Assembly: GCA_964507955.1 (NCBI GenBank)
Contig: CAZDRR010000001.1
Location: forward strand, 344-64,343
Length of the DNA stretch: 64,000 nt
DNA from: an uncultured Candidatus Saccharibacteria bacterium
GTDB lineage: Bacteria > Patescibacteriota > Minisyncoccia > Phycocordibacterales > JAACPR01
Direction of reading: 5' to 3'
Below the pieces are notes generated by a model that worked only from the letters and a program-made list of their open reading frames with translations, was not told the DNA's origin and ran no database searches. A program made the translations under genes and the position numbers. Each line of letters begins with the position of its first letter. Position 1 is the first letter of the stretch. Positions 18,143 through 64,000 of the stretch are shown here, piece by piece.

Positions 18143-18179
18143 CCGCTCCTCCTGTTTGGGGGGAGCGGTTTTTCTTTTT
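18143..18179 (+). terminator. rho-independent terminator after major tail gene
   Basis: ccgctcctcctgtttggggggagcgg hairpin plus tttttcttttt. Confidence 0.75.
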
Positions 18180-18194
18180 AGTGTAAAATGTAGT

Positions 18195-37186: not shown

Positions 37187-37190
37187 GTTC

Positions 37191-39523: not shown

Positions 39524-39562
39524 TTTGAAATAAGTGTAATTTCTTCTGACATATTGTAAAAG

Positions 39563-47852: not shown

Positions 47853-48580
47853 AATCAGTTTCCGCAATTATTAATTGTTTTCAACGCCCACACGCTTTAA
47901 GAAGTCAATTTGAAGCGATAGAATCTCAATCTATCAAGCCGAAAGAGATTATGATTTGGCAAAATGCCCCAATGAATGGAGCGCAATTTGATTATTCTTT
48001 TTTAAATAAATCAATTATTAGCTTAAATAATTATAATTATGGAGTATGGGCTCGATTCGCATTTGCTTTAAATTCTCATTCTGATTATATTTGTATATTT
48101 GATGACGATACTATTCCAAACGAAAATTGGTTTGAAAATTGTTTAGAACAAATTGAACAAAATGGGAATGGTCTTTATGGAACTATTGGAGTAACATTTA
48201 ACGATTTAGATTATCGTTCTTATATTCGTCATGGTTGGGCGAATCCAAATAATAAGGTTGAGCAAGTAGATATTGTAGGACATTCTTGGTTCTTCCATAG
48301 AGATTTATTATCTGCATTTTGGAGAGAAACAGATTTGCCACTTTCCTATTTGTGTGGTGAAGACATGCATTTTTCATATTCAATTCAGAAATATCTTGGA
48401 TTAAATACTTTTGTGCCTCCTCATCCGATAGAAGATTTGTCTTTATGGGGTAGCCGACCCCAATCAGCGATGGAATTAGGCGTTGATAATAATGCTATTT
48501 CTGTGAATTTTCATTCACAAATTTTTGGAGAATCTTTAAAGCATTATCATAAAAAAGGCTTTAAATTATTAAATTTATGA
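47849..48580 (+). CDS. GT-A fold glycosyltransferase (GT2-like)
   Basis: N-terminal Rossmann-like SAIINCFQRP, DxD-type motif FDDDTI; 243 aa. Confidence 0.6.
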   Translation: MKSVSAIINCFQRPHALRSQFEAIESQSIKPKEIMIWQNAPMNGAQFDYSFLNKSIISLNNYNYGVWARFAFALNSHSDYICIFDDDTIPNENWFENCLEQIEQNGNGLYGTIGVTFNDLDYRSYIRHGWANPNNKVEQVDIVGHSWFFHRDLLSAFWRETDLPLSYLCGEDMHFSYSIQKYLGLNTFVPPHPIEDLSLWGSRPQSAMELGVDNNAISVNFHSQIFGESLKHYHKKGFKLLNL

Positions 48581-49584
48581 AAAAAATACTTGTAATATAT
48601 GGGACTCGCCCAGAATATTTAAAAGTTAAAAATTTCTTGAAAAAAAATGACGTTTTTGACATAAAAAGTTTACATATTAAACAACACTCTAATATCATTA
48701 ATTTTGGCGATCCCGATTATTTAATAGAAATTGAAAATAAAAATATAGATAGGTTAAACAATATTTTTAGTGAAATTTTTTTAAAATTACCAGAAATTAT
48801 TAAAGACTTTGATTATATTGTTATTCAGGGAGATACGGCATCTGTTATGGCTTCTGCTGTTTGCGCTTTTAATTTGAAGAAAAAAATTATTTATATTGAA
48901 TCAGGATTAAGAACTTGGGATTTGGATAATCCTTTTCCAGAAGAGGGATATAGACAAATGGTTGCGCGTATTTCATATATAAATTTTTGTCCGACAGAAC
49001 GTTCTAATTTAAATTTAATTAAAGAAAATATTAACCAAAATTGTTTTGCTGTAGGCAATACGTCTTTAGATAATTTATTGAATTTAAAAGAAAAATGCTC
49101 TTATCAGGACAAGGTTTTAATTACTTTACATAGAAATGAAAATTTAAATATTTTATCAGAATGGTTGTCCATAATAGATCAATTTGCAAGAGAACATCCA
49201 GAATTAATGTTTATTTTTCCAGCGCATTTAAATCCTATTGTGCAAACAGCGGCGTCTAAAACAAAATATTTAAAAATAATTAAACCTTTAGAACACGAAG
49301 ATCTTTTAGATATTTTAAAAGATGCAAAATTCGTTATTACTGATTCTGGAGGAATCCAAGAAGAGGCTTGTTTTTTAAATAAAAAAATTATTGTATGTCG
49401 TAAAACAACAGAACGTCCAGAAGGCATTTCGACTGGACATATAAAAATTGCAGAAGATCCTTCTAAATTGAAAAATCTATTAGAAGAAGTAAATACGAAT
49501 TTTATAATAGATGGATCATGCCCATATGGAGACGGGCAATCTACCCAGCGAATTTTACGAATATTAGCAAATGAAAGACTTTAA
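48577..49584 (+). CDS. UDP-N-acetylglucosamine 2-epimerase family enzyme (WecB/NeuC/CapG-like)
   Basis: Signature motifs GTRPE (N-terminus), VIQGDT, DSGGIQEE, TERPE. Confidence 0.8.
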   Translation: MKKILVIYGTRPEYLKVKNFLKKNDVFDIKSLHIKQHSNIINFGDPDYLIEIENKNIDRLNNIFSEIFLKLPEIIKDFDYIVIQGDTASVMASAVCAFNLKKKIIYIESGLRTWDLDNPFPEEGYRQMVARISYINFCPTERSNLNLIKENINQNCFAVGNTSLDNLLNLKEKCSYQDKVLITLHRNENLNILSEWLSIIDQFAREHPELMFIFPAHLNPIVQTAASKTKYLKIIKPLEHEDLLDILKDAKFVITDSGGIQEEACFLNKKIIVCRKTTERPEGISTGHIKIAEDPSKLKNLLEEVNTNFIIDGSCPYGDGQSTQRILRILANERL

Positions 49585-50263
49585 ACAAGAATTATTAATA
49601 ATGCATGATAGACTTATAAAAGGAGAGTCGTTTGCATTTTCTAAATATGCGGATGGGGAATGGGCCGCGATGTTAAATTTACCTTTAGATAATAGAGAAT
49701 TTAAAAACGAAAATTCTTTCGAAACTTCTCGCAAAGAGTTAATTGAATCTTTTAGATTTAAACACCCAAACTATTTTGTTGGAATTTCTTGTGAGTGTTG
49801 TCAAGGAGAAAACCATTTTCGAATGAAAGAATTTTCAACACAACCTATTGAAAATTTAACTTATGCGAATTTATTTGTTAATAGCAATTATCCGATTTAT
49901 AAACAATTATTTCTTCCAGAATATGAAAAAAGAGATGTTCATTTAGTGTGCAATAAATTATCGAAAATAGAAAATTTACCTTTTGTGCCAGAAGAAACAT
50001 ATTTTGTTGGATATAATGCATGGGTAGAAGACCACGATCTTATTAAAAAAATACAAGATAAGAATTTATCGGATAAATTATTTTTATTTTGTTGCGGGCC
50101 ATTCGGTAATTTATTAGCCCACCAACTATTTTCGTCAAATCAAAAAAATATATATTTAGACATTGGATCAACATTAAATCCGTGGTTACAATCAGAAGGA
50201 TTTAAAAGAGATTATTATTCTAATGGATTCTACGCTGGTCGAAAATGTTTTTGGAGGGAATAA
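49571..50263 (+). CDS. hypothetical protein, possible GT-D/DUF1792-like glycosyltransferase
   Basis: 230 aa; N-terminal FSKYADGEWAAM (DxE-type metal motif); weak. Confidence 0.3.
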   Translation: MKDFKQELLIMHDRLIKGESFAFSKYADGEWAAMLNLPLDNREFKNENSFETSRKELIESFRFKHPNYFVGISCECCQGENHFRMKEFSTQPIENLTYANLFVNSNYPIYKQLFLPEYEKRDVHLVCNKLSKIENLPFVPEETYFVGYNAWVEDHDLIKKIQDKNLSDKLFLFCCGPFGNLLAHQLFSSNQKNIYLDIGSTLNPWLQSEGFKRDYYSNGFYAGRKCFWRE

Positions 50264-50265
50264 CA

Positions 50266-51117
50266 ATGATACAAAAAAATAAACGATACTTAATTACTGG
50301 AGGAACTGGATTTTTGGGAGAGGCTTTAATTGCTCGACTACAAAAATTCGGATGCACAATAAGAATTTTGGCAAGAAATGAGGGAAAGCTAATAGCTTTA
50401 AAACAAAAATATCCAAATTTAGAAATTCATACAGGAGATATTTCAGATCCTTTTGAAGTAAAACAAGCAATGAAGGATGTCGATGGAGTTTTCCATCTAG
50501 CAGCTTCAAAACACGTTGGATTAGCAGAAACATTTGTTAGAGAATGCGTTAAGTCTAATACTATAGGATCATTAAATATATTAGAAAATTCATTGAATCA
50601 AAAATTAGATTTTGTTATCGGAATTTCGACAGATAAAGCCGCCCAAGTAGCAGGGGTTTATGGAGCTTCAAAACTTTTAATGGAGCGTTTATTTAAACAG
50701 TTTGAGGAATTAAATCCTCTTTGTAAATATAGAATTGTTCGATATGGTAACGTTTTATATTCTACAGGTTCGGTTTTGTGTAAATGGAAAGAATTAATTC
50801 AATCAGGACAACCATGTGCAGTTTCAGATTTAAATGCTACTAGATTTTATTGGACAGTAGAACAGGCAATTGAGTTAATTTTTGAATGTTTATCCAAAGC
50901 AGAAAATGCTTCCCCTTTTGTTCCTCAAATGAAGTCTATTAGAATCAAAGATTTATTAGAAGCAATGTATGAAAAATATGGCAATGGATTTCAGTTAAAT
51001 CCAATTGTTTATGGATTACAACAAGGGGAAAATTTACACGAAAGGATTTTGGAGGATGGACCTTATTCCAACGAAGTTCCCTTATATAGCAAGAAAGAAA
51101 TTTTAGAACTGATATGA
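50266..51117 (+). CDS. UDP-GlcNAc 4,6-dehydratase, PseB/CapE/FlaA1-like SDR
   Basis: TGGTGFLG NAD motif; ISTDKAAQVAGVYGASK (YxxxK); RYGNVLYSTGSVLCKWKELIQSGQPCAVSDLNATRF closely parallels PseB RYGNVMASRGSVIPLFIEQIKANQPLTITDPNMTRF; start moved to ATG 50266 with GGAGGG SD. Confidence 0.8.
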   Translation: MIQKNKRYLITGGTGFLGEALIARLQKFGCTIRILARNEGKLIALKQKYPNLEIHTGDISDPFEVKQAMKDVDGVFHLAASKHVGLAETFVRECVKSNTIGSLNILENSLNQKLDFVIGISTDKAAQVAGVYGASKLLMERLFKQFEELNPLCKYRIVRYGNVLYSTGSVLCKWKELIQSGQPCAVSDLNATRFYWTVEQAIELIFECLSKAENASPFVPQMKSIRIKDLLEAMYEKYGNGFQLNPIVYGLQQGENLHERILEDGPYSNEVPLYSKKEILELI

Positions 51118-51788
51118 AAGAACTAACTTTATTAATTGGTAGTTGCGATAACTATGCTTCTTTATGGCCTATTTGCGCAGATTTAATTCAAAAATATTGG
51201 GAGATTGATTGCGATAAAATTATAGTTGCAGAAAATTATTCACAATCATGTCCACAAGAATTTAAGTTAATTAATGCTGGGTGCAGAACTTGGACGGAAA
51301 GAATGTTATATGCATTAGATTCTGTTAAAACTCCGTATGTTTTTTTTATATTAGAAGATTATTTTTTAAGCGAAAGAGTTTCTAAGGAAATGATTGATCA
51401 ATTTTTATTTTTTCTGAAAATTCACGAAGCTAATAAAATAGCTTTAACAACAATTCCAGAAGGATTTTATAAAACATCGAAATTTTATGAAAATTTATAT
51501 GATAATATTTATAAAATGGATGACGATAGCGATTACTTAACAAGTGTTCAACCTGCAATTTGGAAGACTTCTTTTTTAAAAGAATTATTACAACAAGATA
51601 ATTGGAATCCATGGGAATTTGAAATTATTGGTAGCGCAAGGATAAAAGGGAAGGATAATAAAATTTTTATCAAGAAAAAAAATGACCCAATTTATTTTAA
51701 TGCAGTTAGAAAAGGAGGTTATTTTTCAGAAGGTTATTTTGAATTTATAGAGAAAGAATTGAATAAAGAAGTTGACAAGAATCATTGA
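51114..51788 (+). CDS. hypothetical protein in sugar-nucleotide operon
   Basis: 224-aa coupled ORF; no recognisable motif. Confidence 0.4.
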   Translation: MKELTLLIGSCDNYASLWPICADLIQKYWEIDCDKIIVAENYSQSCPQEFKLINAGCRTWTERMLYALDSVKTPYVFFILEDYFLSERVSKEMIDQFLFFLKIHEANKIALTTIPEGFYKTSKFYENLYDNIYKMDDDSDYLTSVQPAIWKTSFLKELLQQDNWNPWEFEIIGSARIKGKDNKIFIKKKNDPIYFNAVRKGGYFSEGYFEFIEKELNKEVDKNH

Positions 51789-52879
51789 ATACGCATAATA
51801 TGAACGCGAATATGAAAAAAGTGCTAATAACAGGAGTCACAGGAATGGACGGGAGCCTTATGGCAGATTATTTATTAAAGCATACAGATAATTTTATTGT
51901 TGGAGGTATTCGTAGATTGAGTGTGCCGAATCATAAAAATATAGAACATCTCATTGGGCATCCTAGATTTAAACTTATTGATTTAGATATTACAGATGCG
52001 ATTAATGTTGCGTTAGTGATTAAAGAAGAACGACCAGATTATTTTATTAATTTTGCGGCGAATTCTTTTGTAGGCAATAGTTGGACGATGCCAGTTAATC
52101 ATTTTACGACGAATTGTTTATCGGTGCTTTATCAATTAGAAGCTATTCGCAAATATGCTCCAAACTGTCATTATTATAATGCAGGCTCTTCTGAGGAGTT
52201 TGGTGATGTTGTAACTGTTCCTCAGTCAGAAAGTCATCCTTTACGCCCACGAAGTCCTTATGGGGCAGCTAAGGCTTCTTCAAGACATCTTGTGAAGGTT
52301 TATAGAGAATCTTATAATCTTTACGCTATTCAGGGTTGGTTATTTAACCACGAAGGAATTCGCAGGGGAGAAGAATTTGTCACCCGCAAAATTACCAAAG
52401 GCGTTGCAAGAATTAAACATGCCATTGAAAATAAACTTCCATTTGAACCTCTTGAACTCGGTAATCTTGATTCAACAAGGGATTGGAGCGATGCAGAAGA
52501 TTTTGTAGATGGTATATGGAAAATGCTCAATCAAGAATTTCCAAAAGAATATGTTCTATCGTCTAATGAGACCCATTCTATTAAAGAATTTGTAGAATTA
52601 GCTTTTTTATCGGCTGGGATTCATGGTGTTTGGGTTGGAGAAAAATTAGATACATTATATCTTCTTCCAAATGCTGACGCGGAATATTGTGAATTTGCAT
52701 CAATTAAATTAGTAAAAATTAATGAAAAATTTTATCGCCCAGCAGAAGTAGAAATTCTTTATGGGGATTCAAGTAAAGCACGGACAGAATTAAATTGGCA
52801 ACCAAAAATTTCTTTTAAAAACCTTGTAAAAAAAATGGTTGAAAACGATATAAAAGAATATGCCAAAACCCATTCGTAA
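51785..52879 (+). CDS. gmd: GDP-mannose 4,6-dehydratase
   Basis: ITGVTGMDGSLMADYLL, SPYGAAK, LFNHEGIRRGEEFVTRKIT, YFRPAEVE and the C-terminus align closely with E. coli Gmd. Confidence 0.92.
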   Translation: MNTHNMNANMKKVLITGVTGMDGSLMADYLLKHTDNFIVGGIRRLSVPNHKNIEHLIGHPRFKLIDLDITDAINVALVIKEERPDYFINFAANSFVGNSWTMPVNHFTTNCLSVLYQLEAIRKYAPNCHYYNAGSSEEFGDVVTVPQSESHPLRPRSPYGAAKASSRHLVKVYRESYNLYAIQGWLFNHEGIRRGEEFVTRKITKGVARIKHAIENKLPFEPLELGNLDSTRDWSDAEDFVDGIWKMLNQEFPKEYVLSSNETHSIKEFVELAFLSAGIHGVWVGEKLDTLYLLPNADAEYCEFASIKLVKINEKFYRPAEVEILYGDSSKARTELNWQPKISFKNLVKKMVENDIKEYAKTHS

Positions 52880-54773: not shown

Positions 54774-54988
54774 AGGCAACAAATAATATTCCAGAAACCT
54801 TATTAAGTAAGGTCTTTGACGCAACAGGCTCCGCTTCTGGCGGCAATAGAGGTTATATTATTGCCATGGTTAATTCCAATGGAGACCCGACAATCATTTC
54901 TCGATTTGAAAATTCTTGTGTGAGCCTTGCTTTGAGAAAAGCCCTTGAATTATTTGTTGACACAGATAATCAACAATTAAACCAATGA
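54770..54988 (+). CDS. hypothetical small protein
   Basis: 72-aa coupled ORF. Confidence 0.35.
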   Translation: MKATNNIPETLLSKVFDATGSASGGNRGYIIAMVNSNGDPTIISRFENSCVSLALRKALELFVDTDNQQLNQ

Positions 54989-56541
54989 TTTATTCTTACG
55001 AGTTGGAAAAAAAAGTGCTGTCTGGTATTTTACAGCACCAACATAAATGGGCGGAAATATCCCTTTTTTTAAAGGAGTCGGATTTTTATTCTGACGATTC
55101 TAAAGTAAACGTTTCCATTTTTCGTTTGTTAAAAAATGCATTGGATAATAAAGAAGTTGTTGATGAAACGATTTTAACACAAAGAATTCAACAATTAAAA
55201 GTTAGTTTTCCAGATTGTATTGATATCGGAGAATATATCTATTCTTTGGCGTTTTATAAAATTTCGGAAGATGTTTTTATTTCATCAATCAAAGAACTCA
55301 AAAAGTTTTCTGCCCGAAGAGGAATCTACATTGCTGCTAAAGACGTAGCTTCTTTTGTCAAAAAAACAGATCCAAATTTATCCTATTCTTCTATTGTCGA
55401 ACAGGCGGATAAATTATACAACGACGCAATTCAAAAATTTGAGTCTTTAGATTCTGGCCCCATTAATTTGTTTGAAGTAATGGAGGAAATGATTGAAGAA
55501 CGCGGGAATAATCCTATACAAGAGTTTGGATTAATGGGTCCTCATCCACGCATTAATCAAATTTATGGCTCTTTGCTTAGAGGAGGGAATATTACGGTTA
55601 TTGTAGCTCGTTCTGGAGTGGGCAAGAGTCAATTTGCGATGGATTTTTCTACCAAAGTTGCAGCGATGAATAACGATATTCCCGTGCTTCATTTGGATAA
55701 CGGAGAAATGAGCGAAGAAGAGCTTATTTTCCGTCAGATGGCCGCTATGACAGGTTTACCCGTTCACTTGTTCGAAACAGGTTTATGGCGCTCTTGCACA
55801 TACAAAGACATGTCTTCTAGGGAAATTGTTGACTTAGTTCGTCATACATTTTCAAAGATTAAAAACATGAAGTTCTTTTACGTTAATGTCGCGGGCATGA
55901 CGGTTGAGGAAATGGTAGCTTTGACAAAGAGATTTTACTTTTCCAAGGTTGGACGCGGGAACAAAATGATTCTCAGTTTCGACTATATTAAGAGTGATTT
56001 TAGCAATATAGGTAAAGCAGACGGATGGCAACAAGTAGCCTTTATGGTTAATAAATTTAAACAATGTATCCATCGGGAACTTTGTTTTGATGGTGATCGT
56101 CCCGTGGCTATGATTACATCCGTTCAGTCAAATAGGCTGGGTATTACGACGAATAGGGCTGCTGAAAATATTGTTGACGATGAAAGCGTTGTTAGTTTAT
56201 CAGATGCTATTACTCAATTTTGTTCTCATTTGTTTTTGTTGCGCAAAAAAGTAATGGAGGAGATTCAGGAGGAGGGAACAAAGTTTGGCACCCATAAATT
56301 TATCAATTTAAAATCTAGGCATTTGGGCAAAGACCCAATGAGGGCTATTAATCCCGTCACGATGCCTGATGGTTCTAAAAAGAACAATTATATCAATCTG
56401 GATTTCAATAACTTTTCTATTACAGAGAAAGGCGATCTTGTTGATTGGGTTGAAACAATGAATGGTGGAGGCTCAACAGAATTGGAGACTTTTGATGCGG
56501 AATTTGTTGATGATATTCCAGAATTATTAACTAATGGTTGA
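54985..56541 (+). CDS. DnaB-like replicative helicase
   Basis: DnaB-type N-terminal domain; RecA-fold ATPase with Walker A VIVARSGVGKSQ and Walker B LHLDNGEM. Confidence 0.75.
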   Translation: MIYSYELEKKVLSGILQHQHKWAEISLFLKESDFYSDDSKVNVSIFRLLKNALDNKEVVDETILTQRIQQLKVSFPDCIDIGEYIYSLAFYKISEDVFISSIKELKKFSARRGIYIAAKDVASFVKKTDPNLSYSSIVEQADKLYNDAIQKFESLDSGPINLFEVMEEMIEERGNNPIQEFGLMGPHPRINQIYGSLLRGGNITVIVARSGVGKSQFAMDFSTKVAAMNNDIPVLHLDNGEMSEEELIFRQMAAMTGLPVHLFETGLWRSCTYKDMSSREIVDLVRHTFSKIKNMKFFYVNVAGMTVEEMVALTKRFYFSKVGRGNKMILSFDYIKSDFSNIGKADGWQQVAFMVNKFKQCIHRELCFDGDRPVAMITSVQSNRLGITTNRAAENIVDDESVVSLSDAITQFCSHLFLLRKKVMEEIQEEGTKFGTHKFINLKSRHLGKDPMRAINPVTMPDGSKKNNYINLDFNNFSITEKGDLVDWVETMNGGGSTELETFDAEFVDDIPELLTNG

Positions 56542-57586
56542 TTATAGAAATATTTTAGAGAATTTGGGCTACAAGCTAATAGATCGAGGATCATATTGGC
56601 ATACAGCCGCTATTTTTCGTAATGGAGATAATCCAACAGCAATTCAAATTTATAAAGATACTGGAGTATGGCGAGATTTTGTAGAAGATTCTCCTTTTGC
56701 TCCATTTGAGGCTTTGGTAAAAAAAACTTTAAATACGAATGATTCATCGCTCATTAAAAGCATATTAAATAATAATAGCAACGATATAGAAGCCGTTTCC
56801 TCGAAAAAAAAATTATTGAAAGAAGAGCGCGTTTTCGAAAGTTCTTGTTTGAAAAGACTATTGCCACATTACGACTTTTATACTTCTCCAGAGAGAAATA
56901 TTTCAATCCAAACGCTTGAAGATTATCAATGCGGATTGGCTACTTCTGGTAAATTTTATCAAAGATTAGTTTTTCCTATTTTCAGATATGACGGCAAAAT
57001 ACATGGGTTCTCTGGTAGAAAAATTCTCGAAAGCAACAACAAAAGCAAGTGGTTTCATTCTGGCAAAGTTGCTAATTGGGTATATCCAACTTACACCACT
57101 CCTTTTACAAGTTCGGCTATTTTAAATAAGAAAAGAGTATTTCTTGTAGAATCCATTGGAGATTCGTTGGCGATGTATGATAAAGGAATTCAAGAAAATC
57201 TTGTTTCTTTTGGTTTATCTATTTCTCCAAAATTAGCTGCTCATTTAGGATCATTAGAAGTTGAGAAGATTGTTTTCGCATTCAATAACGATTTTGAAGC
57301 AGAAAAAAATAGGGGTGTAATCGCCGCTGTTAAAAATATCATCAAACTTTCTAGTCACTTGGATTTCACAAAAATTTATATATGTCCTCCTCATAAAAGT
57401 GATTTTGGCAAAATGACGGATCAAAAAGATTTTGAACTTTATCTAAAATATTTTGATAATATGACTCACGAAGAGTCTATGCGCAAAGTAGTCGATCAGG
57501 CGGAAGCGTTAGGAAATAATGTTTCTGACGATTTTAAAATATTAAGAAGAAAGTTCAACAAACTCTATTCATTCCATTATGAATAA
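56534..57586 (+). CDS. DnaG-like primase (Toprim) with degenerate zinc-binding domain
   Basis: Toprim-like FLVESIGDSLAMYDKG; N-terminus follows the DnaG zinc-domain pattern but with SYWH...TGVW replacing CxxH...CxxC. Confidence 0.5.
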   Translation: MVDYRNILENLGYKLIDRGSYWHTAAIFRNGDNPTAIQIYKDTGVWRDFVEDSPFAPFEALVKKTLNTNDSSLIKSILNNNSNDIEAVSSKKKLLKEERVFESSCLKRLLPHYDFYTSPERNISIQTLEDYQCGLATSGKFYQRLVFPIFRYDGKIHGFSGRKILESNNKSKWFHSGKVANWVYPTYTTPFTSSAILNKKRVFLVESIGDSLAMYDKGIQENLVSFGLSISPKLAAHLGSLEVEKIVFAFNNDFEAEKNRGVIAAVKNIIKLSSHLDFTKIYICPPHKSDFGKMTDQKDFELYLKYFDNMTHEESMRKVVDQAEALGNNVSDDFKILRRKFNKLYSFHYE

Positions 57587-58619
57587 ACCATTATCAGCTT
57601 CCAGAATCAAAGTCTTACAAACTTGCTCTTATTTATATTGGGCGAAGTATCATTTAAAACTTCCCGATAAGGCTAACGAGGGTAGTTTGAGAGGCAACAT
57701 TTGTCATACTGTTTTTGAAGTTCTTGGCGATCCTCGCCATAGGAAACATTATGATGCAATTGTCTCTTTGCAAGATGTTGCTGCTTCACAAGCAATAGAG
57801 AGATTGATTTTGTCTTATGCCAAAAAGAATGGCATAGATTCTTTCGAGAATTTGGATTTAATCAACAAGATGATCTTGGAAGGATTGAATTATGATTTTT
57901 TTGGAACCAAAAATGGGAAACCCACATATGGATTAAGCGAATGCGATTTCGATATTGATGTGAATACTGATAAGAAAAATTATCGCATTTTGGGTTTCAT
58001 AGATAAATTGTTCTTGTTCAAAAAGAAAAAACTAGCAATTATTCGTGACTTTAAAACATCAAAGGGAATTTTTTCTGGAGAAGAAGTCGAGGATAATTTG
58101 CAAAATTTAATGTATTGCCTTGCAGTAAAATACTTGTATCCAGAATATTTACAGAGAAAAATGGAATTTCTGTTTTTGAAATTTGATTTGAATAACGGAG
58201 GCTTGCTGGAAATGGCAGAGGTTTCAACAGATGAATTGGAAGGTTTCGAAATTTTCTTGACTCAGGTTCAAAAAGTTATCAATAATTTCAACGAAAAAGC
58301 CGCATTGGCAGATATGGCGTATCACAAAGGCTTTGGACAAGGATTTACTGGAAGGACAGTATGCGGACAAGGAATGAACCCAAATGCTCTTAAAAAGGAT
58401 GGAACGCCCATGTGGGCATGTGCGGCAAAATGGCCTTTCGACTATTATGTATTATTGGATGAAAAGAAAACTGTGATAGGCTCTTCGTTAGATAAAATTG
58501 ATTTGGAGCAAAAACAAACAAAGTATCCAAATTCTAAAATTGAAAAACGCAAATATGAAGGATGCCCAGCTTGGAACGTAAAGAAGAAAATTCTTGACAA
58601 ATACGATCCATTTTTATAA
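57579..58619 (+). CDS. Cas4/RecB-family PD-(D/E)xK exonuclease with Fe-S cysteine set
   Basis: IIRDFKTSK and QNLMYC (QxxxY) nuclease motifs; one N-terminal Cys plus three C-terminal Cys. Confidence 0.55.
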   Translation: MNKPLSASRIKVLQTCSYLYWAKYHLKLPDKANEGSLRGNICHTVFEVLGDPRHRKHYDAIVSLQDVAASQAIERLILSYAKKNGIDSFENLDLINKMILEGLNYDFFGTKNGKPTYGLSECDFDIDVNTDKKNYRILGFIDKLFLFKKKKLAIIRDFKTSKGIFSGEEVEDNLQNLMYCLAVKYLYPEYLQRKMEFLFLKFDLNNGGLLEMAEVSTDELEGFEIFLTQVQKVINNFNEKAALADMAYHKGFGQGFTGRTVCGQGMNPNALKKDGTPMWACAAKWPFDYYVLLDEKKTVIGSSLDKIDLEQKQTKYPNSKIEKRKYEGCPAWNVKKKILDKYDPFL

Positions 58620-59316
58620 AAAAAGAATAGTGATTCCATTATTTAAAACTCATTACAGCGTTGGAAAGAGTATTTTAACTCCTTCTAATATTTTTTCATT
58701 TATAGATGATTCTCCGCAGGTTGTTTTTGTTGAGGATAGTTTTTGTGGTTTCCGTAATATTTTCAATGAGGCTACGAAACATAAAAAGCAATTGATTTTT
58801 GGAATTCGGCTACCAGTTATCCAAAATTCTTTGGAAGAACGTCCGAGTAAACTTGTTTTTTTTGCAAAAAACGATGAAGGAGTTGGGGATTGCAAACAAC
58901 TTTTTTCAAAAACTTATTGTTCTGATGAAAAAGTTTTAAAATTAGGGGATTTAAAACCCAAGAATCTTAAAAACATCAAAATAGGAGTGCCTTTTTATGA
59001 CTCTTATGTTTACAATAACGTATTTTATTTTGGGTTGTCGGAATTGCATTTGAAAAAATTTGATCATTTTTACTTTGAAGAAAGCAACAATCATCCTTTT
59101 GATTTTCAAATTTCGAATGCCCTAAAAGAAGTTTCAGAAGAAACAGTCTTGGCGAAAACAATCTTGTATAAGAATTACGATGATTTTGATGCCTTTACAA
59201 TGTATAAGGCAATTTGTAATAGAGGTCACGGGAAATCGCCAACGCATTCAGCGCCGAATATCAATCATCTATGTTCCAACGAATTTTGCTGGGAATCTTT
59301 CAAATTAAATAAATGA
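58594..59316 (+). CDS. degenerate PHP-domain protein (detached N-terminal domain of Pol III alpha)
   Basis: LFKTHYSVGKSIL, FVEDSFCGFRNIFNEATKHKKQLIFGIRL and LVFFAKNDEGVGDCKQLFS parallel DnaE PHP-domain segments but lack the metal-ligand histidines. Confidence 0.45.
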   Translation: MTNTIHFYKKRIVIPLFKTHYSVGKSILTPSNIFSFIDDSPQVVFVEDSFCGFRNIFNEATKHKKQLIFGIRLPVIQNSLEERPSKLVFFAKNDEGVGDCKQLFSKTYCSDEKVLKLGDLKPKNLKNIKIGVPFYDSYVYNNVFYFGLSELHLKKFDHFYFEESNNHPFDFQISNALKEVSEETVLAKTILYKNYDDFDAFTMYKAICNRGHGKSPTHSAPNINHLCSNEFCWESFKLNK

Positions 59317-59978
59317 GCTTACCATTTGACCAAAAATACATAACCTTTGATACAGAAACAGAAGGCTTGAATTTACATAATTCTCGTCCATGGCAATTGG
59401 CGTGGAATCGAGCAAAAGGAAACAAGTCTCTTAATGCAGAAAATAGATTTTTATATTGGTCTGATTTAAAAGTATCAAGAGACGCGGCGAGGATCACAGG
59501 ATTTGATATAGATTTTTATGAAAATATTGGCAGGGATAATCATAAATACAAAATTTTTGGCAAGGAGTTTAAAGCGGAAAATCCAGAGGTCGTTTTAAAC
59601 GATTTTGAAAAAGAGTTGTATGATCCCAAGAACATTATTGTTGGGCAAAACTTATTAGGATACGACGTTTATATTATTGCCACTTTACAACGTATTTGTG
59701 GCAAAAAACAGGATTTCTCTTATTTATCCCGCATTTATGATACGAGACCGCTGGGTATGGCTTATAGAGAAGGATTGACAAAACCAAAGAATTGCGACAT
59801 GCTTTCTTGGCAATATAAAATATTAAATGACGCATCTTTGAAAGCAAAAGTTTCACAACTCGCACAATTGAAATTTTTAGGCATTGAATTTGATGAAACG
59901 AAACTTCATGATGCCTTATATGATAATGAAATGTGCTTCCAAATTTTTCAAGCACATAAAAAGAATTTAAGCCTATGA
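59313..59978 (+). CDS. DnaQ-like DEDDh 3'-5' proofreading exonuclease
   Basis: Exo I FDTETEG, Exo II GQNLLGYDV, Exo III HDALYDNEM; ATGA-coupled to both neighbours. Confidence 0.8.
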   Translation: MSLPFDQKYITFDTETEGLNLHNSRPWQLAWNRAKGNKSLNAENRFLYWSDLKVSRDAARITGFDIDFYENIGRDNHKYKIFGKEFKAENPEVVLNDFEKELYDPKNIIVGQNLLGYDVYIIATLQRICGKKQDFSYLSRIYDTRPLGMAYREGLTKPKNCDMLSWQYKILNDASLKAKVSQLAQLKFLGIEFDETKLHDALYDNEMCFQIFQAHKKNLSL

Positions 59979-62545
59979 TTTTTCATGATGTAAAACCATA
60001 TGTCGAACCAGAGCCAGTAGGCGTCGAACTACCTAAAATTTTTGTTACAGAACAAGAATTAAAAGAAATTGACGACAAACTTACCGTCAACAGCAGCAGT
60101 TTTGATCTTTTGAAGTCGCTGGTCAGAAAGGGATTGAAAGACAAGGGAATTGTTAATCGAGACGATAAACAAACATATTTTGATAGGGCAAAACAAGAAC
60201 TGGATACTTTCGAAGAATTGGGATTCACAGACTATGTTCTTTTAAATTGGGACATTTTGAATTTTTGTCATAAGAACAATATCCCTACAGGCGCGGGCAG
60301 AGGTTCTGCGGCAGGCAGTTTAGTTCTTTTTTTATTAGGGGTTACAAATATAGATCCGCTTGAACATAATTTATTCTTCGAAAGATTCGTTTCCAAATCC
60401 CGTGCGAAGAAAATCCTTTCCAAATCAGGAAAACAATTTCTTGTTGGAAGCTTGTTACCCGACGTTGATTCAGACATTTCATATGATCAACGCTCCAAAG
60501 TTATCGCTTATATTGAGGAAAAACACAGAGGAAAGACTTCTAAAATTTTGACCTTTAATACTTTCAGTTCCAAACTTTGCATTAGAGAAACAGCGAAGTA
60601 TTTTTGTGAAGCTTCTGAATTTGAAGCCAGTGAAGTTAGCGACATGATTCCGAAATTACACGGAGTCGTTGCTGATTTGGAAGATGCATATGAAGAAGTT
60701 GAATCTTTTAAAAATTGGGCAAACCGTTATCCAGACGCTTATAAAAATGCTTTAAAAATAGAGAACTTGAATAAAAATACGGGAGTTCATCCTTCTGGAA
60801 TTGCTATTTGCTCCGATACAATTTCGAATATTATTCCTCTTCAAAAAACAAAGGATGGAGATTTGGTGTCGGGTTATGATATGAATGGAGTATCGGATTT
60901 GATGGTTAAATTCGATATCTTGGGACTAAGAACACTTACTGTCGCCCAAAATACCTGTAATCGTCTAGGCATCTCTCTGGACGATATTCCATATAATGAT
61001 GAGTTCATTTATAAAGCGTTACAGGATTTCAAACATCCGATGGGATTATTCCAAATTTCTGCGGATACAAACTTTAGGGTAGCGCAAGCAATTAAGCCAA
61101 GCAACTTACAAGAATTGTCTGATGTTATCGCTCTTGCAAGGCCCGGAGCCTTGCAATTCCTTACAGACTATAAAGAGAACAAACAGACCTTAAAAGAACT
61201 TGGTATGCATGAAGAGTTAGATCATATTCTTTCATGGTCAAAGAATGTTATCTTATATCAGGAACAATTGATGATGATCGCCAACAAGGTTTTCGGATTC
61301 TCTTTAGAAGAAGCTGAAATCTTGAGAAGAATTGTTGGTAAGAAAAAACGTGATGAGATGCCCCCATGGAAAGAAAAAATTTATAATGCGGGCAAAGAAA
61401 GAGGATTGGATACAAAAATCAGCGATTTCTATTGGTCCGCTCTTGAAGCCTCTGCGGATTATTCTTTCAATTTAAGTCATAGCGTTAGTTATGCGACTTT
61501 GGCGGCGAAAACCGTATATTTGAAATACAAGTATCCTCAAGAATTCTTTATTTCTCTATTAGAATCTGCTGAATTCGAACCAGATCCATTAGCGGAAATT
61601 TCCCTTATCCAAAAAGAATTACAGGATTTTGGTATTAAACTTCTTCCACCTTCCCTTGAAGTATCCGATATGACATTTTCGGTTGAAAATGAAAATATTC
61701 GTTATGGATTAAGAACTATTAAAGGTATCTCCTCCAAGTCATTAGCTTCATTGGTTGATTTTCGAGGCAAGAAATTTGCAAATAAGTATGAAGTGTTTTC
61801 TGCGGCCAAGAATGCAGGTATCAACATTTCTGTTCTCGCGGCATTGATTCAGGCTGGAACAATGGATCAGTCTGGACAGAATAGAAGTCGCATGGTTCTG
61901 GAGGCACAAGCATTTAACCTTTTAACAGATAGGGAAAAGCGTAATTTTATGCTTATCGGAGAAAGATTTGGATTTGACCTGTTGAATACAATTGCTGATG
62001 TGGTGGACAAACAAATTATTGGAGACGATAATCGGGTGATTATGTCCAATAAAAGGTTGGAAACCTTCAAACGCGATTTCCAAAAATATCTGACAATTTA
62101 TCGCCAAAATCGCAAGTATGATAAATTTGCAAAATGGTGGTATGAGAACACATTATTAGGGTATAGTTATTCGATTCTTTTAAAAGATTGTTTTGTTGAT
62201 ACGTTTGGTGTTTTGGATAACATTAAGGATTTGGAAGAAGCTGACGATAGATCGACATTTAAAGTTGCTGGTCAAGTTGAAGATTTCTTTGTTAAAACGA
62301 GCGCGGCTGGAAATAAATATATGTCCATTCTTCTTTCAGACAATACAGCGACCCAAAAATTTCTTTTTATGGATAATCGCAGGGCAGCTAAATTAACAGA
62401 ATTTTTAGAGTTTAATAAACTGATCAAAAAGGATATAATCGTATTGACAGGGACAAAAAGTTCGGATAGCTTATTTGTGAATTCTATAGAAAAAATAGAC
62501 TGTTCAATTTACATGAAACCGAAAGATATCAAAGATGAATCTTGA
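59975..62545 (+). CDS. dnaE: DNA polymerase III alpha catalytic core (lacking PHP domain)
   Basis: GAGRGSAAGSLV, PDVDSDI catalytic aspartates, FERF, C-terminal OB-fold; begins where DnaE thumb/palm starts. Confidence 0.85.
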   Translation: MIFHDVKPYVEPEPVGVELPKIFVTEQELKEIDDKLTVNSSSFDLLKSLVRKGLKDKGIVNRDDKQTYFDRAKQELDTFEELGFTDYVLLNWDILNFCHKNNIPTGAGRGSAAGSLVLFLLGVTNIDPLEHNLFFERFVSKSRAKKILSKSGKQFLVGSLLPDVDSDISYDQRSKVIAYIEEKHRGKTSKILTFNTFSSKLCIRETAKYFCEASEFEASEVSDMIPKLHGVVADLEDAYEEVESFKNWANRYPDAYKNALKIENLNKNTGVHPSGIAICSDTISNIIPLQKTKDGDLVSGYDMNGVSDLMVKFDILGLRTLTVAQNTCNRLGISLDDIPYNDEFIYKALQDFKHPMGLFQISADTNFRVAQAIKPSNLQELSDVIALARPGALQFLTDYKENKQTLKELGMHEELDHILSWSKNVILYQEQLMMIANKVFGFSLEEAEILRRIVGKKKRDEMPPWKEKIYNAGKERGLDTKISDFYWSALEASADYSFNLSHSVSYATLAAKTVYLKYKYPQEFFISLLESAEFEPDPLAEISLIQKELQDFGIKLLPPSLEVSDMTFSVENENIRYGLRTIKGISSKSLASLVDFRGKKFANKYEVFSAAKNAGINISVLAALIQAGTMDQSGQNRSRMVLEAQAFNLLTDREKRNFMLIGERFGFDLLNTIADVVDKQIIGDDNRVIMSNKRLETFKRDFQKYLTIYRQNRKYDKFAKWWYENTLLGYSYSILLKDCFVDTFGVLDNIKDLEEADDRSTFKVAGQVEDFFVKTSAAGNKYMSILLSDNTATQKFLFMDNRRAAKLTEFLEFNKLIKKDIIVLTGTKSSDSLFVNSIEKIDCSIYMKPKDIKDES

Positions 62546-64000
62546 TTATTATACCTCTCAATTACAATTTGTTATTAAAGAAAGCGAAAGGTTCGCTCAA
62601 AACAATGGATTTAAATATGTAACAGAAGATATTCTGTTTTATTCTTTAATATCTTCTCATAGTTCAACTTGTATTTTAGCATTTGAGAAGGCCCAAATTA
62701 ATATAGCGGCATTAGCGGGAGAAGCGATTAAATCAATTATTCTTCCTAAAAAACATCAAGAATTTTGTGGTTTTTCCAAAAAGGCAAAATCTATATTAAA
62801 ATTTGCGGAAGCTATCGCTGCGAGTCAATTCCGTCAGGAATATTTGTCTCCAGAAATTGTGCTGTTAGCTTTCTTTTCTCAAGAGCATTTGCCGAAAGCT
62901 TTGAAGAATTTTTTCAAAGTGAGTTTAACAGAAGAAATCTTGGAAAACCCTCAAGTGTTGTCTTTATTTGAAGGCGTTGCAATTGTGGTAAAAGATTTAG
63001 ATTTCTCAATTAAGGAAGAAGTTGAGCCAGAAAATGAGGATGTTAATAACATCCCTATGTTTGAATTGAATCCGATTCTTTCTCAATTTTCGGATAATTT
63101 GAATTTACAAGCAGCTATTGGGTTGTTTGATACCATTGTGGATTTTGATTCCAAGATAGATGAAATTGCGACAATTTTATGCCGCAAAAAGAAACCGAAT
63201 GCGATTTTGGTAGGTCCTGCGGGGACGGGAAAAACAAGTTTAGTGCAAGGTTTGGCTACAAAAATTGTAAAGGGAGAAGCTCCTGATTTACTTTTGAATA
63301 AGGTAATTTACTCAGTAAACTTATCTTCTATGGTGGCAGGGACACAATATCGCGGACAATTCGAAAAGCGCCTTGAAGATTTTATTAATGAAGCCAAGAA
63401 ATATTCCAACTTGATTCTTTTTATTGATGAAATTCACACGCTTGTAGGCGCGGGAGGAGGATCTTCATCTTCTCTTGAAGCCTCCAATATATTAAAACCT
63501 GAATTGGCAAGAGGAAGCATTTCTTGTATTGGAGCGACAACAATTAACGAATATACGAATACTATTAAAAAAGATTCAGCATTGGATCGTCGTTTTGAAA
63601 AAGTAATTGTCAGGGAACCGTCTAAGTTTCAAATGGAGAAAATTCTTCCTGAAATTTTGAATTATTATGAAGAGTTTCACGGCGTTGAATATACAGAAGA
63701 ATTTGTAAATAACATCATTTATTTTTGTGAACAGTTCTTGCCAAACAGAAGATATCCAGATAAGGCGATTGATGTTATAGACCACTGCGGAGCGCAAGCC
63801 AAAGTTAAGTTTTGGGAAATGGATGCTGAATTGAAAGATTACCAAAAGCATATTCGCGAAGGTATTGAAGAAACTGGTGAGGTTGATCAAAAAGCTTTGG
63901 ATCTTTTAAATAAAAAAATAGATGTGTGGGAAGGCAAACTGTTGTCGGAAACCGCTAAAGTTCAATTAAGCCATTTGAAAGCATTCTTCCTTAATAAAGG
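62534..64000 (+). CDS. ClpA/ClpC-like AAA+ unfoldase (5' partial, runs off window end)
   Basis: Hand-translated open frame with no stop by 64000: Clp_N-like N-domain, Walker A ILVGPAGTGKT, Walker B LFIDEIHTLVGAG, sensor/arginine-finger region ALDRRFEKVIVREPS, DKAIDVIDHCGAQ. Confidence 0.75.

What the first reader, a model, noticed from the sequence alone, without database searches (positions are those of the whole stretch)
62534..64000. Phage-encoded ClpA/ClpC-like AAA+ unfoldase with a Clp_N domain, not listed in the ORF track
Hand translation of the last 1.47 kb gives an open frame that aligns with ClpA/ClpC through the N-domain and the first AAA+ module (GPAGTGKT, DEIHTLVGAG, ALDRRFEKVIVREPS). 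Phages commonly borrow host Clp; carrying their own unfoldase, starting 12 nt before the dnaE stop, suggests remodelling of the replication complex or takeover of proteolysis. The gene continues beyond the window.
Basis: seen in the sequence. Interest (0 to 1): 0.5.

Follow-up and report, generated by a model that had tools for sequence, protein, structure and literature searches.

The report
Phage ClpC-like unfoldase, dead second ring
An uncultured aquatic phage carries, right behind its DNA polymerase gene, a complete ClpC-like protein-unfolding ATPase whose first motor ring is intact and whose second ring has lost its motor residues but keeps the loop that normally docks onto the ClpP protease.

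Summary
An open frame starts at ATG 62535 (not 62534), overlaps the dnaE stop by 11 nt and runs off the window end (488 codons).

It is a two-ring Clp/Hsp100 ATPase, closest to ClpC. The family profile aligns end to end with S. aureus ClpC (E 2e-116), and a ClpC/ClpP model and complex are the best fold matches.

The first ring (D1) is fully canonical. The second ring (D2) is degenerate across the family:
- Walker B is an invariant Asp-Asp, not Asp-Glu.
- The GYVG pore loop is deleted.
- Sensor-1, sensor-2 and (mostly) the Arg finger are lost.
- The ClpP-docking [M/L/V/I]-G-F tripeptide is essentially invariant.

The gene follows phage dnaE in 80 of 80 related viral contigs. No clpP was found in a composite whole genome.

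Best reading: a D1-powered phage unfoldase that docks on host ClpP, co-expressed with the replisome. Docking, activity and substrates are inferred, not shown. Phage Clp ATPases are already annotated, but this degenerate-D2 clade appears undescribed, so I rate it a new variant of a known kind.

The parts
62535..64000 (+). 5' 1466 nt (aa 1-488 of 766) of the phage ClpC-like Hsp100 gene. The full gene would end at window-equivalent 64835.
   Evidence: Open frame. 100% identical to the 766-aa P0001. L001/L002 DNA is identical to the window. The family profile aligns 6-765 with S. aureus ClpC 6-786, E 2e-116.
62535..62999 (+). Clp N-terminal domain (aa 1-155).
   Evidence: Pfam Clp_N 24-25 bits against a cutoff of 20.7. 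The profile aligns with the ClpC N-domain from residue 6. AlphaFold2 predicts nine helices over aa 8-152 at pLDDT about 76-93. This domain is poorly conserved in the family (36% mean pairwise identity).
63072..63620 (+). D1 large AAA+ subdomain (aa 180-362), fully canonical.
   Evidence: Pfam AAA E 5e-17. 82% mean pairwise identity across the family, the highest of any region. All catalytic columns are invariant in 116 homologs and in 79 IMG/VR copies.
63213..63236 (+). D1 Walker A, GPAGTGKT (aa 227-234).
   Evidence: Sequence. G227, G230, G232 and K233 are invariant in 116/116. In two distant family members an intein is inserted exactly here.
63339..63365 (+). D1 pore-1 loop, GTQYRGQFE (aa 269-277), with aromatic Y272.
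   Evidence: Y in 115/116 and F in 1/116; R273, G274, Q275, F276 and E277 are invariant. Aligns with ClpC AGTKYRGEFE.
63414..63431 (+). D1 Walker B, ILFIDE (aa 294-299), with catalytic Glu299.
   Evidence: D298 and E299 are invariant in 116/116 and 79/79.
63588..63593 (+). D1 arginine fingers R352-R353 (in ALDRRFEK).
   Evidence: R352 and R353 are invariant in 116/116 and 79/79.
63621..63809 (+). D1 small (lid) subdomain (aa 363-425), including the PDKAID sensor-2 region.
   Evidence: Pfam AAA_lid_9 E 1e-18. P408, D409, K410 and A411 are invariant.
63810..63959 (+). Short M-domain-like helical hairpin (aa 426-475).
   Evidence: AlphaFold2 helices 431-447 and 452-471. Aligns, with gaps, to the ClpC M-domain region. 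Only 33% mean pairwise identity, with W465 invariant.
59975..62545 (+). Phage DnaE (Pol III alpha without a PHP domain). Its stop overlaps the clp start by 11 nt.
   Evidence: Pfam DNA_pol3_alpha E 8e-58, finger domain and HHH_6. A DnaE homolog lies directly upstream of the clp homolog in 80/80 IMG/VR loci. The two genes overlap by 4-20 nt in L003-L005.
54985..59978 (+). Rest of the conserved replication module: DnaB-like helicase (54985-56541), primase (56534-57586), PD-(D/E)XK nuclease (57579-58619), a separate PHP-like ORF (58594-59316) and a DnaQ-like exonuclease (59313-59978).
   Evidence: Pfam. The same order is seen in L003-L005. Homologs are present in 70-80 of 80 IMG/VR loci.

Best explanation
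The gene encodes a phage-borne, ClpC-type double-ring Hsp100 unfoldase in which the division of labour between the rings is shifted.

Shown here, by sequence and model only:
- The protein has the ClpC domain order: N-domain, D1, short M-like hairpin, D2, docking loop.
- D1 keeps every catalytic and pore-loop residue and is under very strong constraint.
- D2 keeps its fold, a Walker A P-loop and an invariant Asp-Asp. It has lost the Walker-B glutamate, the GYVG pore-1 loop, the sensor-1 Asn, the sensor-2 Arg and, in most members, the Arg finger.
- The [M/L/V/I]-G-F tripeptide sits on a flexible loop at the position of the ClpC/ClpA/ClpX ClpP-docking loop and is essentially invariant.
- The gene is always immediately 3' of phage dnaE, and overlaps it in the four loci where gene calls were checked.
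- No clpP homolog was found in the phage genome.

Inferred, not shown:
- D1 is the working ATP-driven motor.
- D2 is a nucleotide-binding but hydrolysis-poor scaffold whose main job is to hold the hexamer together and present six docking loops.
- The partner is the host ClpP.
- The complex degrades or remodels selected host or phage proteins while the replication genes are expressed, so the phage supplies its own substrate selector for the host protease.
- The substrates are unknown.
For: ClpC-type identity.
- PDB best hits are ClpC. The family profile aligns end to end at E 2e-116.
- The AlphaFold2 model has pLDDT 83.3. Its top Foldseek PDB hits are the CLPC-CLPP integrative model and the MecA/ClpC/ClpP complex, 9a66 and 9rai.

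D1 intact.
- Walker A, Walker B (DE), pore-loop Tyr, sensor-1 and the RR fingers are invariant in 116 homologs and 79 IMG/VR copies.
- D1 shows 82% mean pairwise identity, against 53% for D2-large.
- Inteins sit in the D1 P-loop of two members. Inteins typically target indispensable sites (my own knowledge).

D2 degenerate.
- HMMER alignments to ClpC show DD opposite DE, a 5-6 residue deletion removing PPGYVG, and no GAR.
- Family columns give DD in 116/116 and 77/77, and no conserved Arg at the finger column.
- Among the best 150 representatives at 50% clustering, the top ~31 (825 to 325 bits) form this clade. After them comes a plateau made up almost entirely of canonical ClpC-like proteins: 101 sequences in which DE and the GYVG-type loop define the set, GAR is present in 99 and an Arg finger in 97.
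- Some clade members have lost even the Walker A Lys yet keep xGF.

Docking loop.
- VGF 661-663 aligns on the ClpC VGF.
- G662 and F663 are invariant in 116/116 and 77/77.
- The loop has low pLDDT, consistent with flexibility.

Genomic context.
- DnaE is directly upstream in 80/80 loci.
- The genes overlap by 4-20 nt in the four loci where calls were checked.

No phage clpP.
- None in the window or within 10 kb either side in 80 loci.
- None in a composite genome made of the window plus 85 kb walked in a collinear relative. Best tblastn E was 0.57 and best HMM E was 1.4.

Literature benchmark. In E. coli ClpA, D2 does 80-90% of ATP hydrolysis and is the principal unfoldase (PMC7568338).
Against: - Nothing is experimental: ATPase activity, hexamer formation, ClpP binding and substrates are all inferred.
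- An Asp-Asp Walker B can still support slow hydrolysis. DnaA has one (my own knowledge). D2 may therefore be a slow switch rather than dead.
- P0001 itself has an Arg (R684) at the finger-equivalent position, although the column is not conserved.
- According to the ClpA literature, a D1-only motor fails on many substrates (PMC7568338), so efficient proteolysis is not guaranteed.
- The host is unknown. The only hint is two Flavobacteriales metagenome-assembled contigs, so compatibility with host ClpP is untested.
- The clpP-absence test is a composite of two phages whose Clp proteins are about 60% identical. It would also miss a non-homologous peptidase.
- Strict linkage to dnaE could equally point to a ClpP-independent role.
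Confidence: 0.55

Rival explanations
1. A ClpP-independent replisome remodeller or chaperone. The D1 ring unfolds or disassembles replication-related complexes, for example activating an initiator, recycling the phage Pol III, or stripping host replisome or DNA-bound proteins. This would resemble the way ClpA activates P1 RepA or ClpX disassembles the MuA transpososome. On this reading the xGF loop contacts a different partner or is a structural relic.
For: - The gene is immediately downstream of dnaE in 80/80 loci and overlaps it in the four loci checked.
- It sits at the end of a conserved UvsX-DnaB-primase-nuclease-PHP-exonuclease-DnaE block.
- No clpP is found in the phage.
- The loss of D2 motor residues suggests it does not need strong processive translocation into a protease.
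- Chaperone roles of ClpA and ClpX in replication are established (my own knowledge).
Against: - The [MLVI]-G-F tripeptide is the best-conserved feature of an otherwise decaying D2, and it survives even where the Walker A Lys is lost. That is hard to explain without a docking function.
- ClpB, ClpV and ClpIb-type enzymes that work without ClpP lack this motif (PMC10149685).
- Module membership in phages often reflects timing of expression rather than physical partnership.
Confidence: 0.25
2. A ClpP decoy or blocker. The phage protein caps host ClpP through its six docking loops. This excludes host ClpX/ClpA/ClpC and so protects phage proteins from degradation or disables a ClpP-dependent host response, with little or no substrate delivery.
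For: - D2, the ring that contacts ClpP and normally drives translocation, has lost its pore loop and catalytic residues while the docking loop is kept.
- Phages are known to interfere with ClpCP, for example through the SPO1 adaptor-like protein (PMC6873191).
Against: - D1 is the most conserved part of the protein (82% identity), with every ATPase and pore-loop residue invariant. A passive cap would not need an intact motor or an N-domain.
Confidence: 0.1
3. An ordinary host-derived clpA/clpC copy, a bacterial contaminant, or a decaying pseudogene with no special function.
For: - JGI pipelines label homologs simply as ClpA or ClpC.
- Some 'phage' database hits are really bacterial. MT835472.1 carries a canonical 871-aa ClpB.
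Against: - The window has a terminase, a tape measure and a replication module.
- 80 IMG/VR viral contigs carry the gene in the same context.
- Only 2 hits turn up in 185,579 species-representative genomes, both on short contigs from metagenome-assembled genomes.
- The ORF is intact at about 740-790 aa in 116 of the 120 listed homologs.
- D1 identity is very high.
- It falls far below the ClpA, ClpB and ClpV equivalog cutoffs.
- D2 changes follow a conserved pattern (invariant DD, invariant GF) rather than random decay.
Confidence: 0.03

Closest known systems
ClpC (B. subtilis, S. aureus) and mycobacterial ClpC1: class I Clp/Hsp100 unfoldases that partner ClpP
   Same: - Same domain order: Clp N-domain, D1, short M-domain-like hairpin, D2, then a [LIVM]-G-F ClpP-docking loop at the same aligned position.
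- Best sequence, profile and fold matches.
- D1 motifs are identical in kind.
   Different: - D2 lacks the Walker-B Glu (DD), the GYVG pore loop (deleted), the sensor-1 Asn and the sensor-2 GAR Arg, and usually the Arg finger.
- The M-like insert is shorter and poorly conserved.
- Only about 22-28% identity overall.
- Encoded by a phage next to dnaE.
E. coli ClpA
   Same: - Two-ring ClpP-docking unfoldase with an N-domain.
- D1 aligns at E about 1e-62.
- ClpA has a known chaperone role in replication, through P1 RepA (my own knowledge).
   Different: - In ClpA, D2 is the main ATPase and unfoldase (PMC7568338). Here the D2 motor residues are gone.
- NCBIfam ClpA equivalog score is 355 bits against a cutoff of 993.
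- ClpA has no M-domain insert.
Phage 'ATP-dependent protease' family PHROG 4871 (for example Klebsiella phage RaK2 ORF069 and K64-1 ClpA)
   Same: - Phage-encoded, about 770 aa, with a full-length match to the profile (E 3e-104).
- Shows that phage Clp ATPases are already catalogued.
   Different: - The RaK2 protein has a fully canonical D2: GPSGTGKT, GYVG, LLLDE and GAR.
- RaK2 scores 1028 bits to the PHROG, against 351 for this protein.
- RaK2's gene lies among structural genes, not next to dnaE.
ClpI (ClpIa / ClpIb) of Actinomycetota (PMC10149685)
   Same: A ClpC/ClpB-like third lineage with a short M-domain and a variable N-domain. Presence or absence of the LGF motif is used there to infer ClpP partnership.
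   Different: ClpI proteins are described as having intact ATPase modules in both rings. They are cellular and actinobacterial, and have no dnaE linkage.
NSF-type division of labour: one catalytic ring plus one nucleotide-binding structural ring (my own knowledge)
   Same: The proposed logic is the same: D1 acts as the motor, and D2 acts as an ATP-binding, hydrolysis-poor oligomerisation ring.
   Different: - A different AAA+ clade with no protease partner.
- This is an analogy only, and was not tested here.

Membership tests
Clp/Hsp100 class I (double-ring) AAA+ superfamily | N-terminal Clp_N double-repeat domain | tested here: met
   Pfam Clp_N 24-25 bits against a cutoff of 20.7, though no single stretch passes alone. 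The family profile aligns with the ClpC N-domain from residue 6. AlphaFold2 predicts an all-helical domain of nine helices over aa 8-152.
Clp/Hsp100 class I (double-ring) AAA+ superfamily | D1 AAA+ module with Walker A, Walker B (DE), pore-loop aromatic residue, Arg fingers and the AAA_lid_9 lid | tested here: met
   Pfam AAA and AAA_lid_9. All motif columns are invariant in 116 and in 79 sequences.
Clp/Hsp100 class I (double-ring) AAA+ superfamily | D2 module of the AAA_2 type (fold) | tested here: met
   Pfam AAA_2 49.7 bits against a cutoff of 27. AlphaFold2 gives a beta1-beta5 core plus lid at pLDDT about 74-92 apart from the flexible docking loop. Aligns to ClpC D2 through residue 760.
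Clp/Hsp100 class I (double-ring) AAA+ superfamily | Catalytically competent D2: Walker-B Glu, GYVG pore loop, sensor-1 Asn, Arg finger, sensor-2 GAR | tested here: not met
   DD is invariant in place of DE. A 5-6 residue deletion removes GYVG. The sensor-1 column is A/G/S/D. The finger column is C/S/N/K. There is no GAR. Walker A GxxxxGK[ST] is retained.
ClpC | [LIVM]-G-F ClpP-docking loop after the D2 sensor-1 strand | tested here: met
   VGF 661-663 aligns on the ClpC VGF. The family shows M103/L9/V2/I2, then G in 116/116 and F in 116/116. IMG/VR copies are 77/77. Actual ClpP binding is not testable with these tools.
ClpC | Short coiled-coil M-domain inserted in the D1 small subdomain | tested here: inconclusive
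   A helical hairpin at 431-471 lies at the right place. It aligns to the ClpC M-domain only with gaps, is about 15 residues shorter and shows 33% family identity.
ClpC | Adaptor (MecA/McsB-type) dependence and a resting-state assembly | not testable with these tools
   No adaptor-like Pfam hit in the three small downstream ORFs tested, out of four called. Biochemistry would be needed.
ClpA (NCBIfam TIGR02639 equivalog) | Score above the curated equivalog cutoff | tested here: not met
   354.7 bits against a cutoff of 993.15; PRK11034 scores 253 against 1350.
ClpB (TIGR03346) and ClpV/TssH (TIGR03345) | Score above the curated cutoff; long M-domain; no ClpP loop | tested here: not met
   ClpB scores 299 against 1232, and ClpV scores 307 against 885. 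The protein has an xGF loop and only a short insert.
PHROG 4871 (phage 'ATP-dependent protease') | Significant full-length match to the profile (there is no curated cutoff) | tested here: met
   E 3e-104 and 351 bits, covering residues 3-761 of the protein and positions 5-736 of the 764-position profile. It is a distant member: RaK2 ORF069 scores 1028 bits and has a canonical D2.

The most novel reading that the evidence does not exclude
These phages carry a dedicated, replisome-linked protease adaptor-motor. It would be a naturally 'D1-only' ClpC-like unfoldase whose pseudo-ATPase D2 ring serves purely as a ClpP-docking collar. It would be made together with the phage Pol III and would use host ClpP to destroy or process specific replication-related targets, such as host replisome or defence proteins, or phage replication factors that need processing. 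If so, it would be the first natural Clp unfoldase in which the ring next to the protease is not a motor, and a new mode of phage takeover of host proteolysis.
Probability: 0.25. Interest if true: 0.75.

Novelty: new variant of a known kind. Interest (0 to 1): 0.55.

Why it matters
For double-ring Clp unfoldases the textbook view is that the ClpP-proximal D2 ring is the main engine. In ClpA it carries out 80-90% of ATP hydrolysis and is the principal unfoldase (PMC7568338).

This clade is large and diverse. It comprises about 30 clusters at 50% identity among the representatives, 116 full-length close homologs among the 120 listed, and 80 or more viral contigs. It has kept the docking loop and the D1 motor while letting the D2 motor decay.

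If these proteins really drive ClpP, they are a natural experiment on three questions:
- how much work D1 alone can do;
- what a non-motor D2 ring contributes;
- how a virus can plug its own substrate selector into a host protease.

The unbroken linkage to phage dnaE also gives a concrete, testable lead connecting proteolysis or remodelling to phage replication in an abundant, uncultured group of aquatic phages of about 140 kb, possibly infecting Flavobacteriales.

Tried and rejected
**Searches that led nowhere**
- Megablast of 60000-64000 against 50,697 phage records found no match. tblastn of the Clp fragment and of DnaE found only relatives below 46% identity, so there is no close cultured phage.
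- The best-covering 'phage' hit, MT835472.1, is a canonical 871-aa ClpB in an UNVERIFIED record, so I discarded it as a relative.
- The look-up of encoding contigs did not return the 138,977-bp NCBI contig listed for P0001, only 4.9 and 5.5 kb Logan contigs. I therefore could not read the query phage's own downstream 75 kb. Instead I walked 85 kb of a collinear relative using the seven remaining IMG/VR scans.
- Seven literature searches for phage-encoded Clp ATPases or degenerate-D2 Clp proteins found nothing on this family.
- BFVD holds only three viral full-length Clp-like structures, at 21-26% identity.

**The clpP search**
- tblastn with E. coli ClpP against the window and L001/L002 and against the 80 IMG/VR loci.
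- tblastn with E. coli and B. subtilis ClpP, plus a two-sequence HMM, against the window and the walked relative.
All results were negative.
- Pfam on the head-module ORFs found no CLP_protease or any other head-related family, so a ClpP-like prohead protease as partner is unsupported.

**Ideas considered and rejected**
- Clamp loader. Weak PHROG 'clamp loader' hits reflect generic AAA+ similarity only. The architecture is Hsp100, and a RuvB-like AAA+ protein exists elsewhere in the relative.
- Adaptor next door. Three of the four small ORFs downstream of clp were tested and have no ClpS- or MecA-like Pfam hit.
- Operon-ending terminator. The promoter/terminator scan downstream of the gene was at background level.
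- Membership of ClpA, ClpB, ClpV, ClpK or ClpG. All NCBIfam cutoffs are missed by a wide margin.

Full report
**1. The observation**

The open frame begins at ATG 62535 and stays open for 488 codons to the last base of the window.

The upstream ORF, 59975-62545, is a Pol III alpha (DnaE) homolog: DNA_pol3_alpha E 8e-58, plus the finger domain and HHH_6. It ends with TGA at 62543-62545.

The quoted motifs GPAGTGKT, DEIHTLVGAG and ALDRRFEKVIVREPS are present at aa 227-234, 298-307 and 349-363. The ORF is missing from the mechanical ORF list only because ORFs that run off the source are not listed.

The match to Clp ATPases is far beyond chance:
- Pfam AAA, E 5e-17.
- Pfam AAA_lid_9, E 1e-18.
- Pfam Clp_N, 25 bits against a cutoff of 20.7.
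- PHROG 4871 'ATP-dependent protease', E 5e-88.
- ClpC structures, E about 1e-64.

**2. The gene is complete**

A 766-aa protein, P0001, is 100% identical to the fragment. It is encoded on two Logan contigs. Their DNA has no mismatch to the window across the 1466 nt of the gene and 1.3-2.2 kb upstream.

The gene would end at window-equivalent position 64835.

**3. The setting is a phage**

The window encodes:
- a large terminase (6682-8577);
- a 2073-aa tape measure protein (21337-27558);
- a class II ribonucleotide reductase;
- a UvsX/RecA-like recombinase;
- a DnaB-primase-nuclease-PHP-exonuclease-DnaE block.

There is no close cultured relative. Megablast finds nothing, and all tblastn hits are below 60% identity, the listed ones below 46%. 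Homologs lie on viral contigs of up to 137-148 kb.

The only two hits among 185,579 species-representative genomes are short contigs in Flavobacteriaceae and Flavobacteriales metagenome-assembled genomes. Together with 29-40% G+C, this is a weak hint at the host.

**4. What the protein is**

The full-length protein aligns with B. subtilis and S. aureus ClpC from residue 180 to 760. A profile of 80 family members aligns end to end, 6-765 against 6-786 of S. aureus ClpC, at E 2e-116, and this includes the N-domain.

An AlphaFold2 model (pLDDT 83.3) shows:
- an all-helical N-domain;
- two AAA+ modules;
- a helical hairpin at 431-471, where ClpC has its M-domain;
- a low-confidence loop at 664-666, immediately after the VGF tripeptide (aa 661-663).

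Its best matches among solved structures are a CLPC-CLPP integrative model and the MecA/ClpC/ClpP complex.

It is not an ortholog of a named type. It scores 355 bits on the ClpA equivalog (cutoff 993), 299 on ClpB (cutoff 1232) and 307 on ClpV (cutoff 885).

**5. The unexpected part: the two rings are not equal**

I examined 116 full-length homologs at 46-62% identity (motif columns) and, independently, 79 gene copies from IMG/VR.

D1 is canonical in every sequence:

| D1 feature | Finding |
|---|---|
| Walker A | invariant |
| Walker B | D-E, invariant |
| Pore loop | Y-R-G |
| Sensor-1 | Thr |
| Arg fingers | R-R |
| Sensor-2 region | PDKA motif conserved |

D2 is different:

| D2 feature | Finding |
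|---|---|
| Walker A | GxxxxGK[ST] retained |
| Walker B | invariant Asp-Asp (116/116 and 77/77), never Asp-Glu |
| Pore loop | 5-6 residues deleted; PPGYVG and its aromatic residue absent |
| Sensor-1 column | A/G/S/D instead of Asn |
| Arg-finger column | C/S/N/K (P0001 happens to have R684) |
| Sensor-2 | GAR motif absent |

The HMMER alignments to ClpC show the same substitutions independently of my MAFFT alignments.

Constraint follows the same pattern. Mean pairwise identity is 82% in D1-large, 73% in D1-small, 53% in D2-large, 37% in D2-small and 36% in the N-domain.

The best-conserved D2 feature is the tripeptide at the position of the ClpC VGF docking loop. It reads M/L/V/I, then Gly in 116/116 and Phe in 116/116, and it is present in 77/77 IMG/VR copies.

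**6. How far the variant extends**

An exhaustive HMMER search of 1.84 billion cluster representatives gives about 31 representatives scoring 825 down to about 325 bits. After that comes a plateau at or below 303 bits.

Motif extraction separates the two sets.
- The high-scoring set is the degenerate-D2 clade. It has no GYVG; Walker B reads DD, DN, ED and similar; and there is no NRxD finger and no GAR.
- The plateau is made up almost entirely of canonical ClpC-like proteins. In the 101 sequences classed as canonical by DE plus a GYVG-type loop, GAR is present in 99 and an Arg finger in 97.

Within the clade some members have lost even the Walker A lysine (P0130, P0146, P0150, P0154). These still keep LGF or IGF.

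Other phage Clp proteins are different. RaK2 ORF069, the core of PHROG 4871, has a fully canonical D2 and lies among structural genes.

**7. Genomic context**

- In three relatives with gene calls, the order is DnaB-primase-nuclease-PHP-exonuclease-DnaE-Clp, as in the window. There the clp start overlaps the dnaE stop by 4-20 nt.
- In 80 of 80 IMG/VR loci a DnaE homolog lies directly upstream of the clp homolog. The exonuclease, PHP-like ORF and primase are present in 80/80, DnaB in 79 and UvsX in 75.

**8. Is there a phage clpP?**

None was found in:
- the window;
- 10 kb either side in the 80 loci;
- Pfam scans of the head module.

To cover the rest of the genome I walked contig IMGVR_UViG_3300017766_003354, whose Clp is about 60% identical. 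The seven remaining viral scans took me from the clp gene to the contig end. Positions 1-84,990 assembled without conflicts.

Of the window's genes, this stretch shares only the replication module. It is therefore the complement of the window in a collinear genome.

Neither tblastn with two ClpP sequences (best E 0.57) nor a small ClpP HMM (best E 1.4) finds anything in the window or in this stretch. Ten of the larger ORFs there include RtcB, an RNA ligase, a RuvB-like protein, an HD domain, an Ogg-HhH glycosylase, DUF932 and GP88. None is a peptidase.

**9. Mechanism**

Shown by sequence and model:
- a ClpC-type architecture;
- an intact and strongly constrained D1;
- a D2 that keeps its fold, P-loop and docking tripeptide but lacks motor and hydrolysis residues;
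- obligate linkage to phage dnaE;
- no phage clpP.

Inferred:
- D1 is the working motor.
- D2 is a nucleotide-binding, hydrolysis-poor collar that stabilises the hexamer and presents the docking loops.
- The partner is host ClpP.
- The complex degrades or remodels selected proteins during the replication phase.

This inverts the ClpA arrangement, where D2 performs 80-90% of ATP hydrolysis and a D2-inactive enzyme fails on many substrates (PMC7568338). The phage enzyme may therefore be limited to labile or unstructured substrates, or its D1 may be adapted for more work.

I put this at about 0.55. The rivals are:
- a ClpP-independent replisome remodeller (0.25), favoured by the dnaE linkage and disfavoured by the invariant docking motif; ClpP-independent relatives lack that motif (PMC10149685);
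- a passive ClpP cap (0.10), disfavoured by the intact D1;
- host contamination or a pseudogene (0.03), effectively excluded.

**10. Novelty**

Phage-encoded ClpA/ClpC-like ATPases are already catalogued (PHROG 4871, RaK2, K64-1), and pipelines already label homologs of this gene as ClpA or ClpC. The bare statement 'a phage encodes a Clp ATPase' is therefore not new.

I could not find any of the following described elsewhere:
- the family-wide degenerate D2 combined with a conserved ClpP loop;
- the size and diversity of the clade;
- its invariable position behind phage dnaE.

Seven literature searches found nothing, and BFVD holds no member of the family. I rate it a new variant of a known kind, of moderate interest, because all functional claims are still inferences.

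Noticed in passing
P0121 (1167 aa) and P0142 (1053 aa), distant members of the same Clp family. The site corresponds to window 63213-63236.: An intein of about 380-390 aa with a LAGLIDADG homing endonuclease is inserted inside the D1 Walker A P-loop (GPAGTGK|C...THN|TS). This explains their extra length and fits D1 being the indispensable ATPase.
   Followed up: partly
window 58594-62545: The phage Pol III is split. A separate PHP-like ORF of about 240 aa (58594-59316; the PHP Pfam match is only weak to faint in the homologs of L003 and L004) and a DnaQ-like exonuclease (59313-59978) precede a DnaE that starts at the NTPase domain and has no PHP domain. All three ORFs overlap.
   Followed up: partly
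window 36053-42569 (- strand) and 47004-52879 (+ strand): The phage carries sugar-nucleotide and glycosylation genes. These include two phrog_2170 glycosyltransferases, GT1- and GT2-type transferases, a UDP-GlcNAc 2-epimerase (E 6e-66), a Polysacc_synt_2 (PseB-like) dehydratase (E 6e-60) and another nucleotide-sugar epimerase. This may be a nonulosonic-acid or surface-glycan pathway.
   Followed up: no
window 8629-19118 and 27558-35302: Of the large ORFs in the head, tail and baseplate regions, the nine tested have no significant Pfam or PHROG match, even at permissive thresholds. Only the terminase and the 2073-aa tape measure are recognisable, so the structural module is very divergent.
   Followed up: no
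window 12867-13940 (- strand) against 12885-14021 (+ strand): A 357-aa ORF on the minus strand lies almost exactly antisense to a 378-aa plus-strand ORF in the presumed capsid region. It is probably a shadow ORF, but I did not examine it.
   Followed up: no
L006 (MT835472.1, 'UNVERIFIED: Bacteriophage sp.', human faeces), ORF 5980-8595: The best-covering 'phage' database hit to the query is a canonical 871-aa ClpB with a long M-domain, GYVG, DE and GAR, and no xGF loop. It is most likely bacterial DNA in an unverified phage record.
   Followed up: partly
Relative contig IMGVR_UViG_3300017766_003354, positions 1-72,690 (loci L090, L091, L171-L174, L177): The half of the genome downstream of clp is mostly small ORFs. 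It also encodes RtcB (E 4e-64) and an RNA ligase, which may form an RNA-repair pair. In addition there is an HD-domain protein, a RuvB-like AAA+ protein, an Ogg-HhH glycosylase, DUF932 and a widespread GP88-family protein (more than 596 IMG/VR hits).
   Followed up: partly
L088 (CAKZOO010000148.1) and L089 (CAJQQA010000049.1): The only hits to this Clp family among species-representative genomes are contigs of 25 kb and 10 kb binned into uncultured Flavobacteriaceae and Flavobacteriales metagenome-assembled genomes. This is a weak host hint. It is consistent with the low G+C and, on my reading, the lack of an obvious Shine-Dalgarno sequence before the clp start.
   Followed up: no
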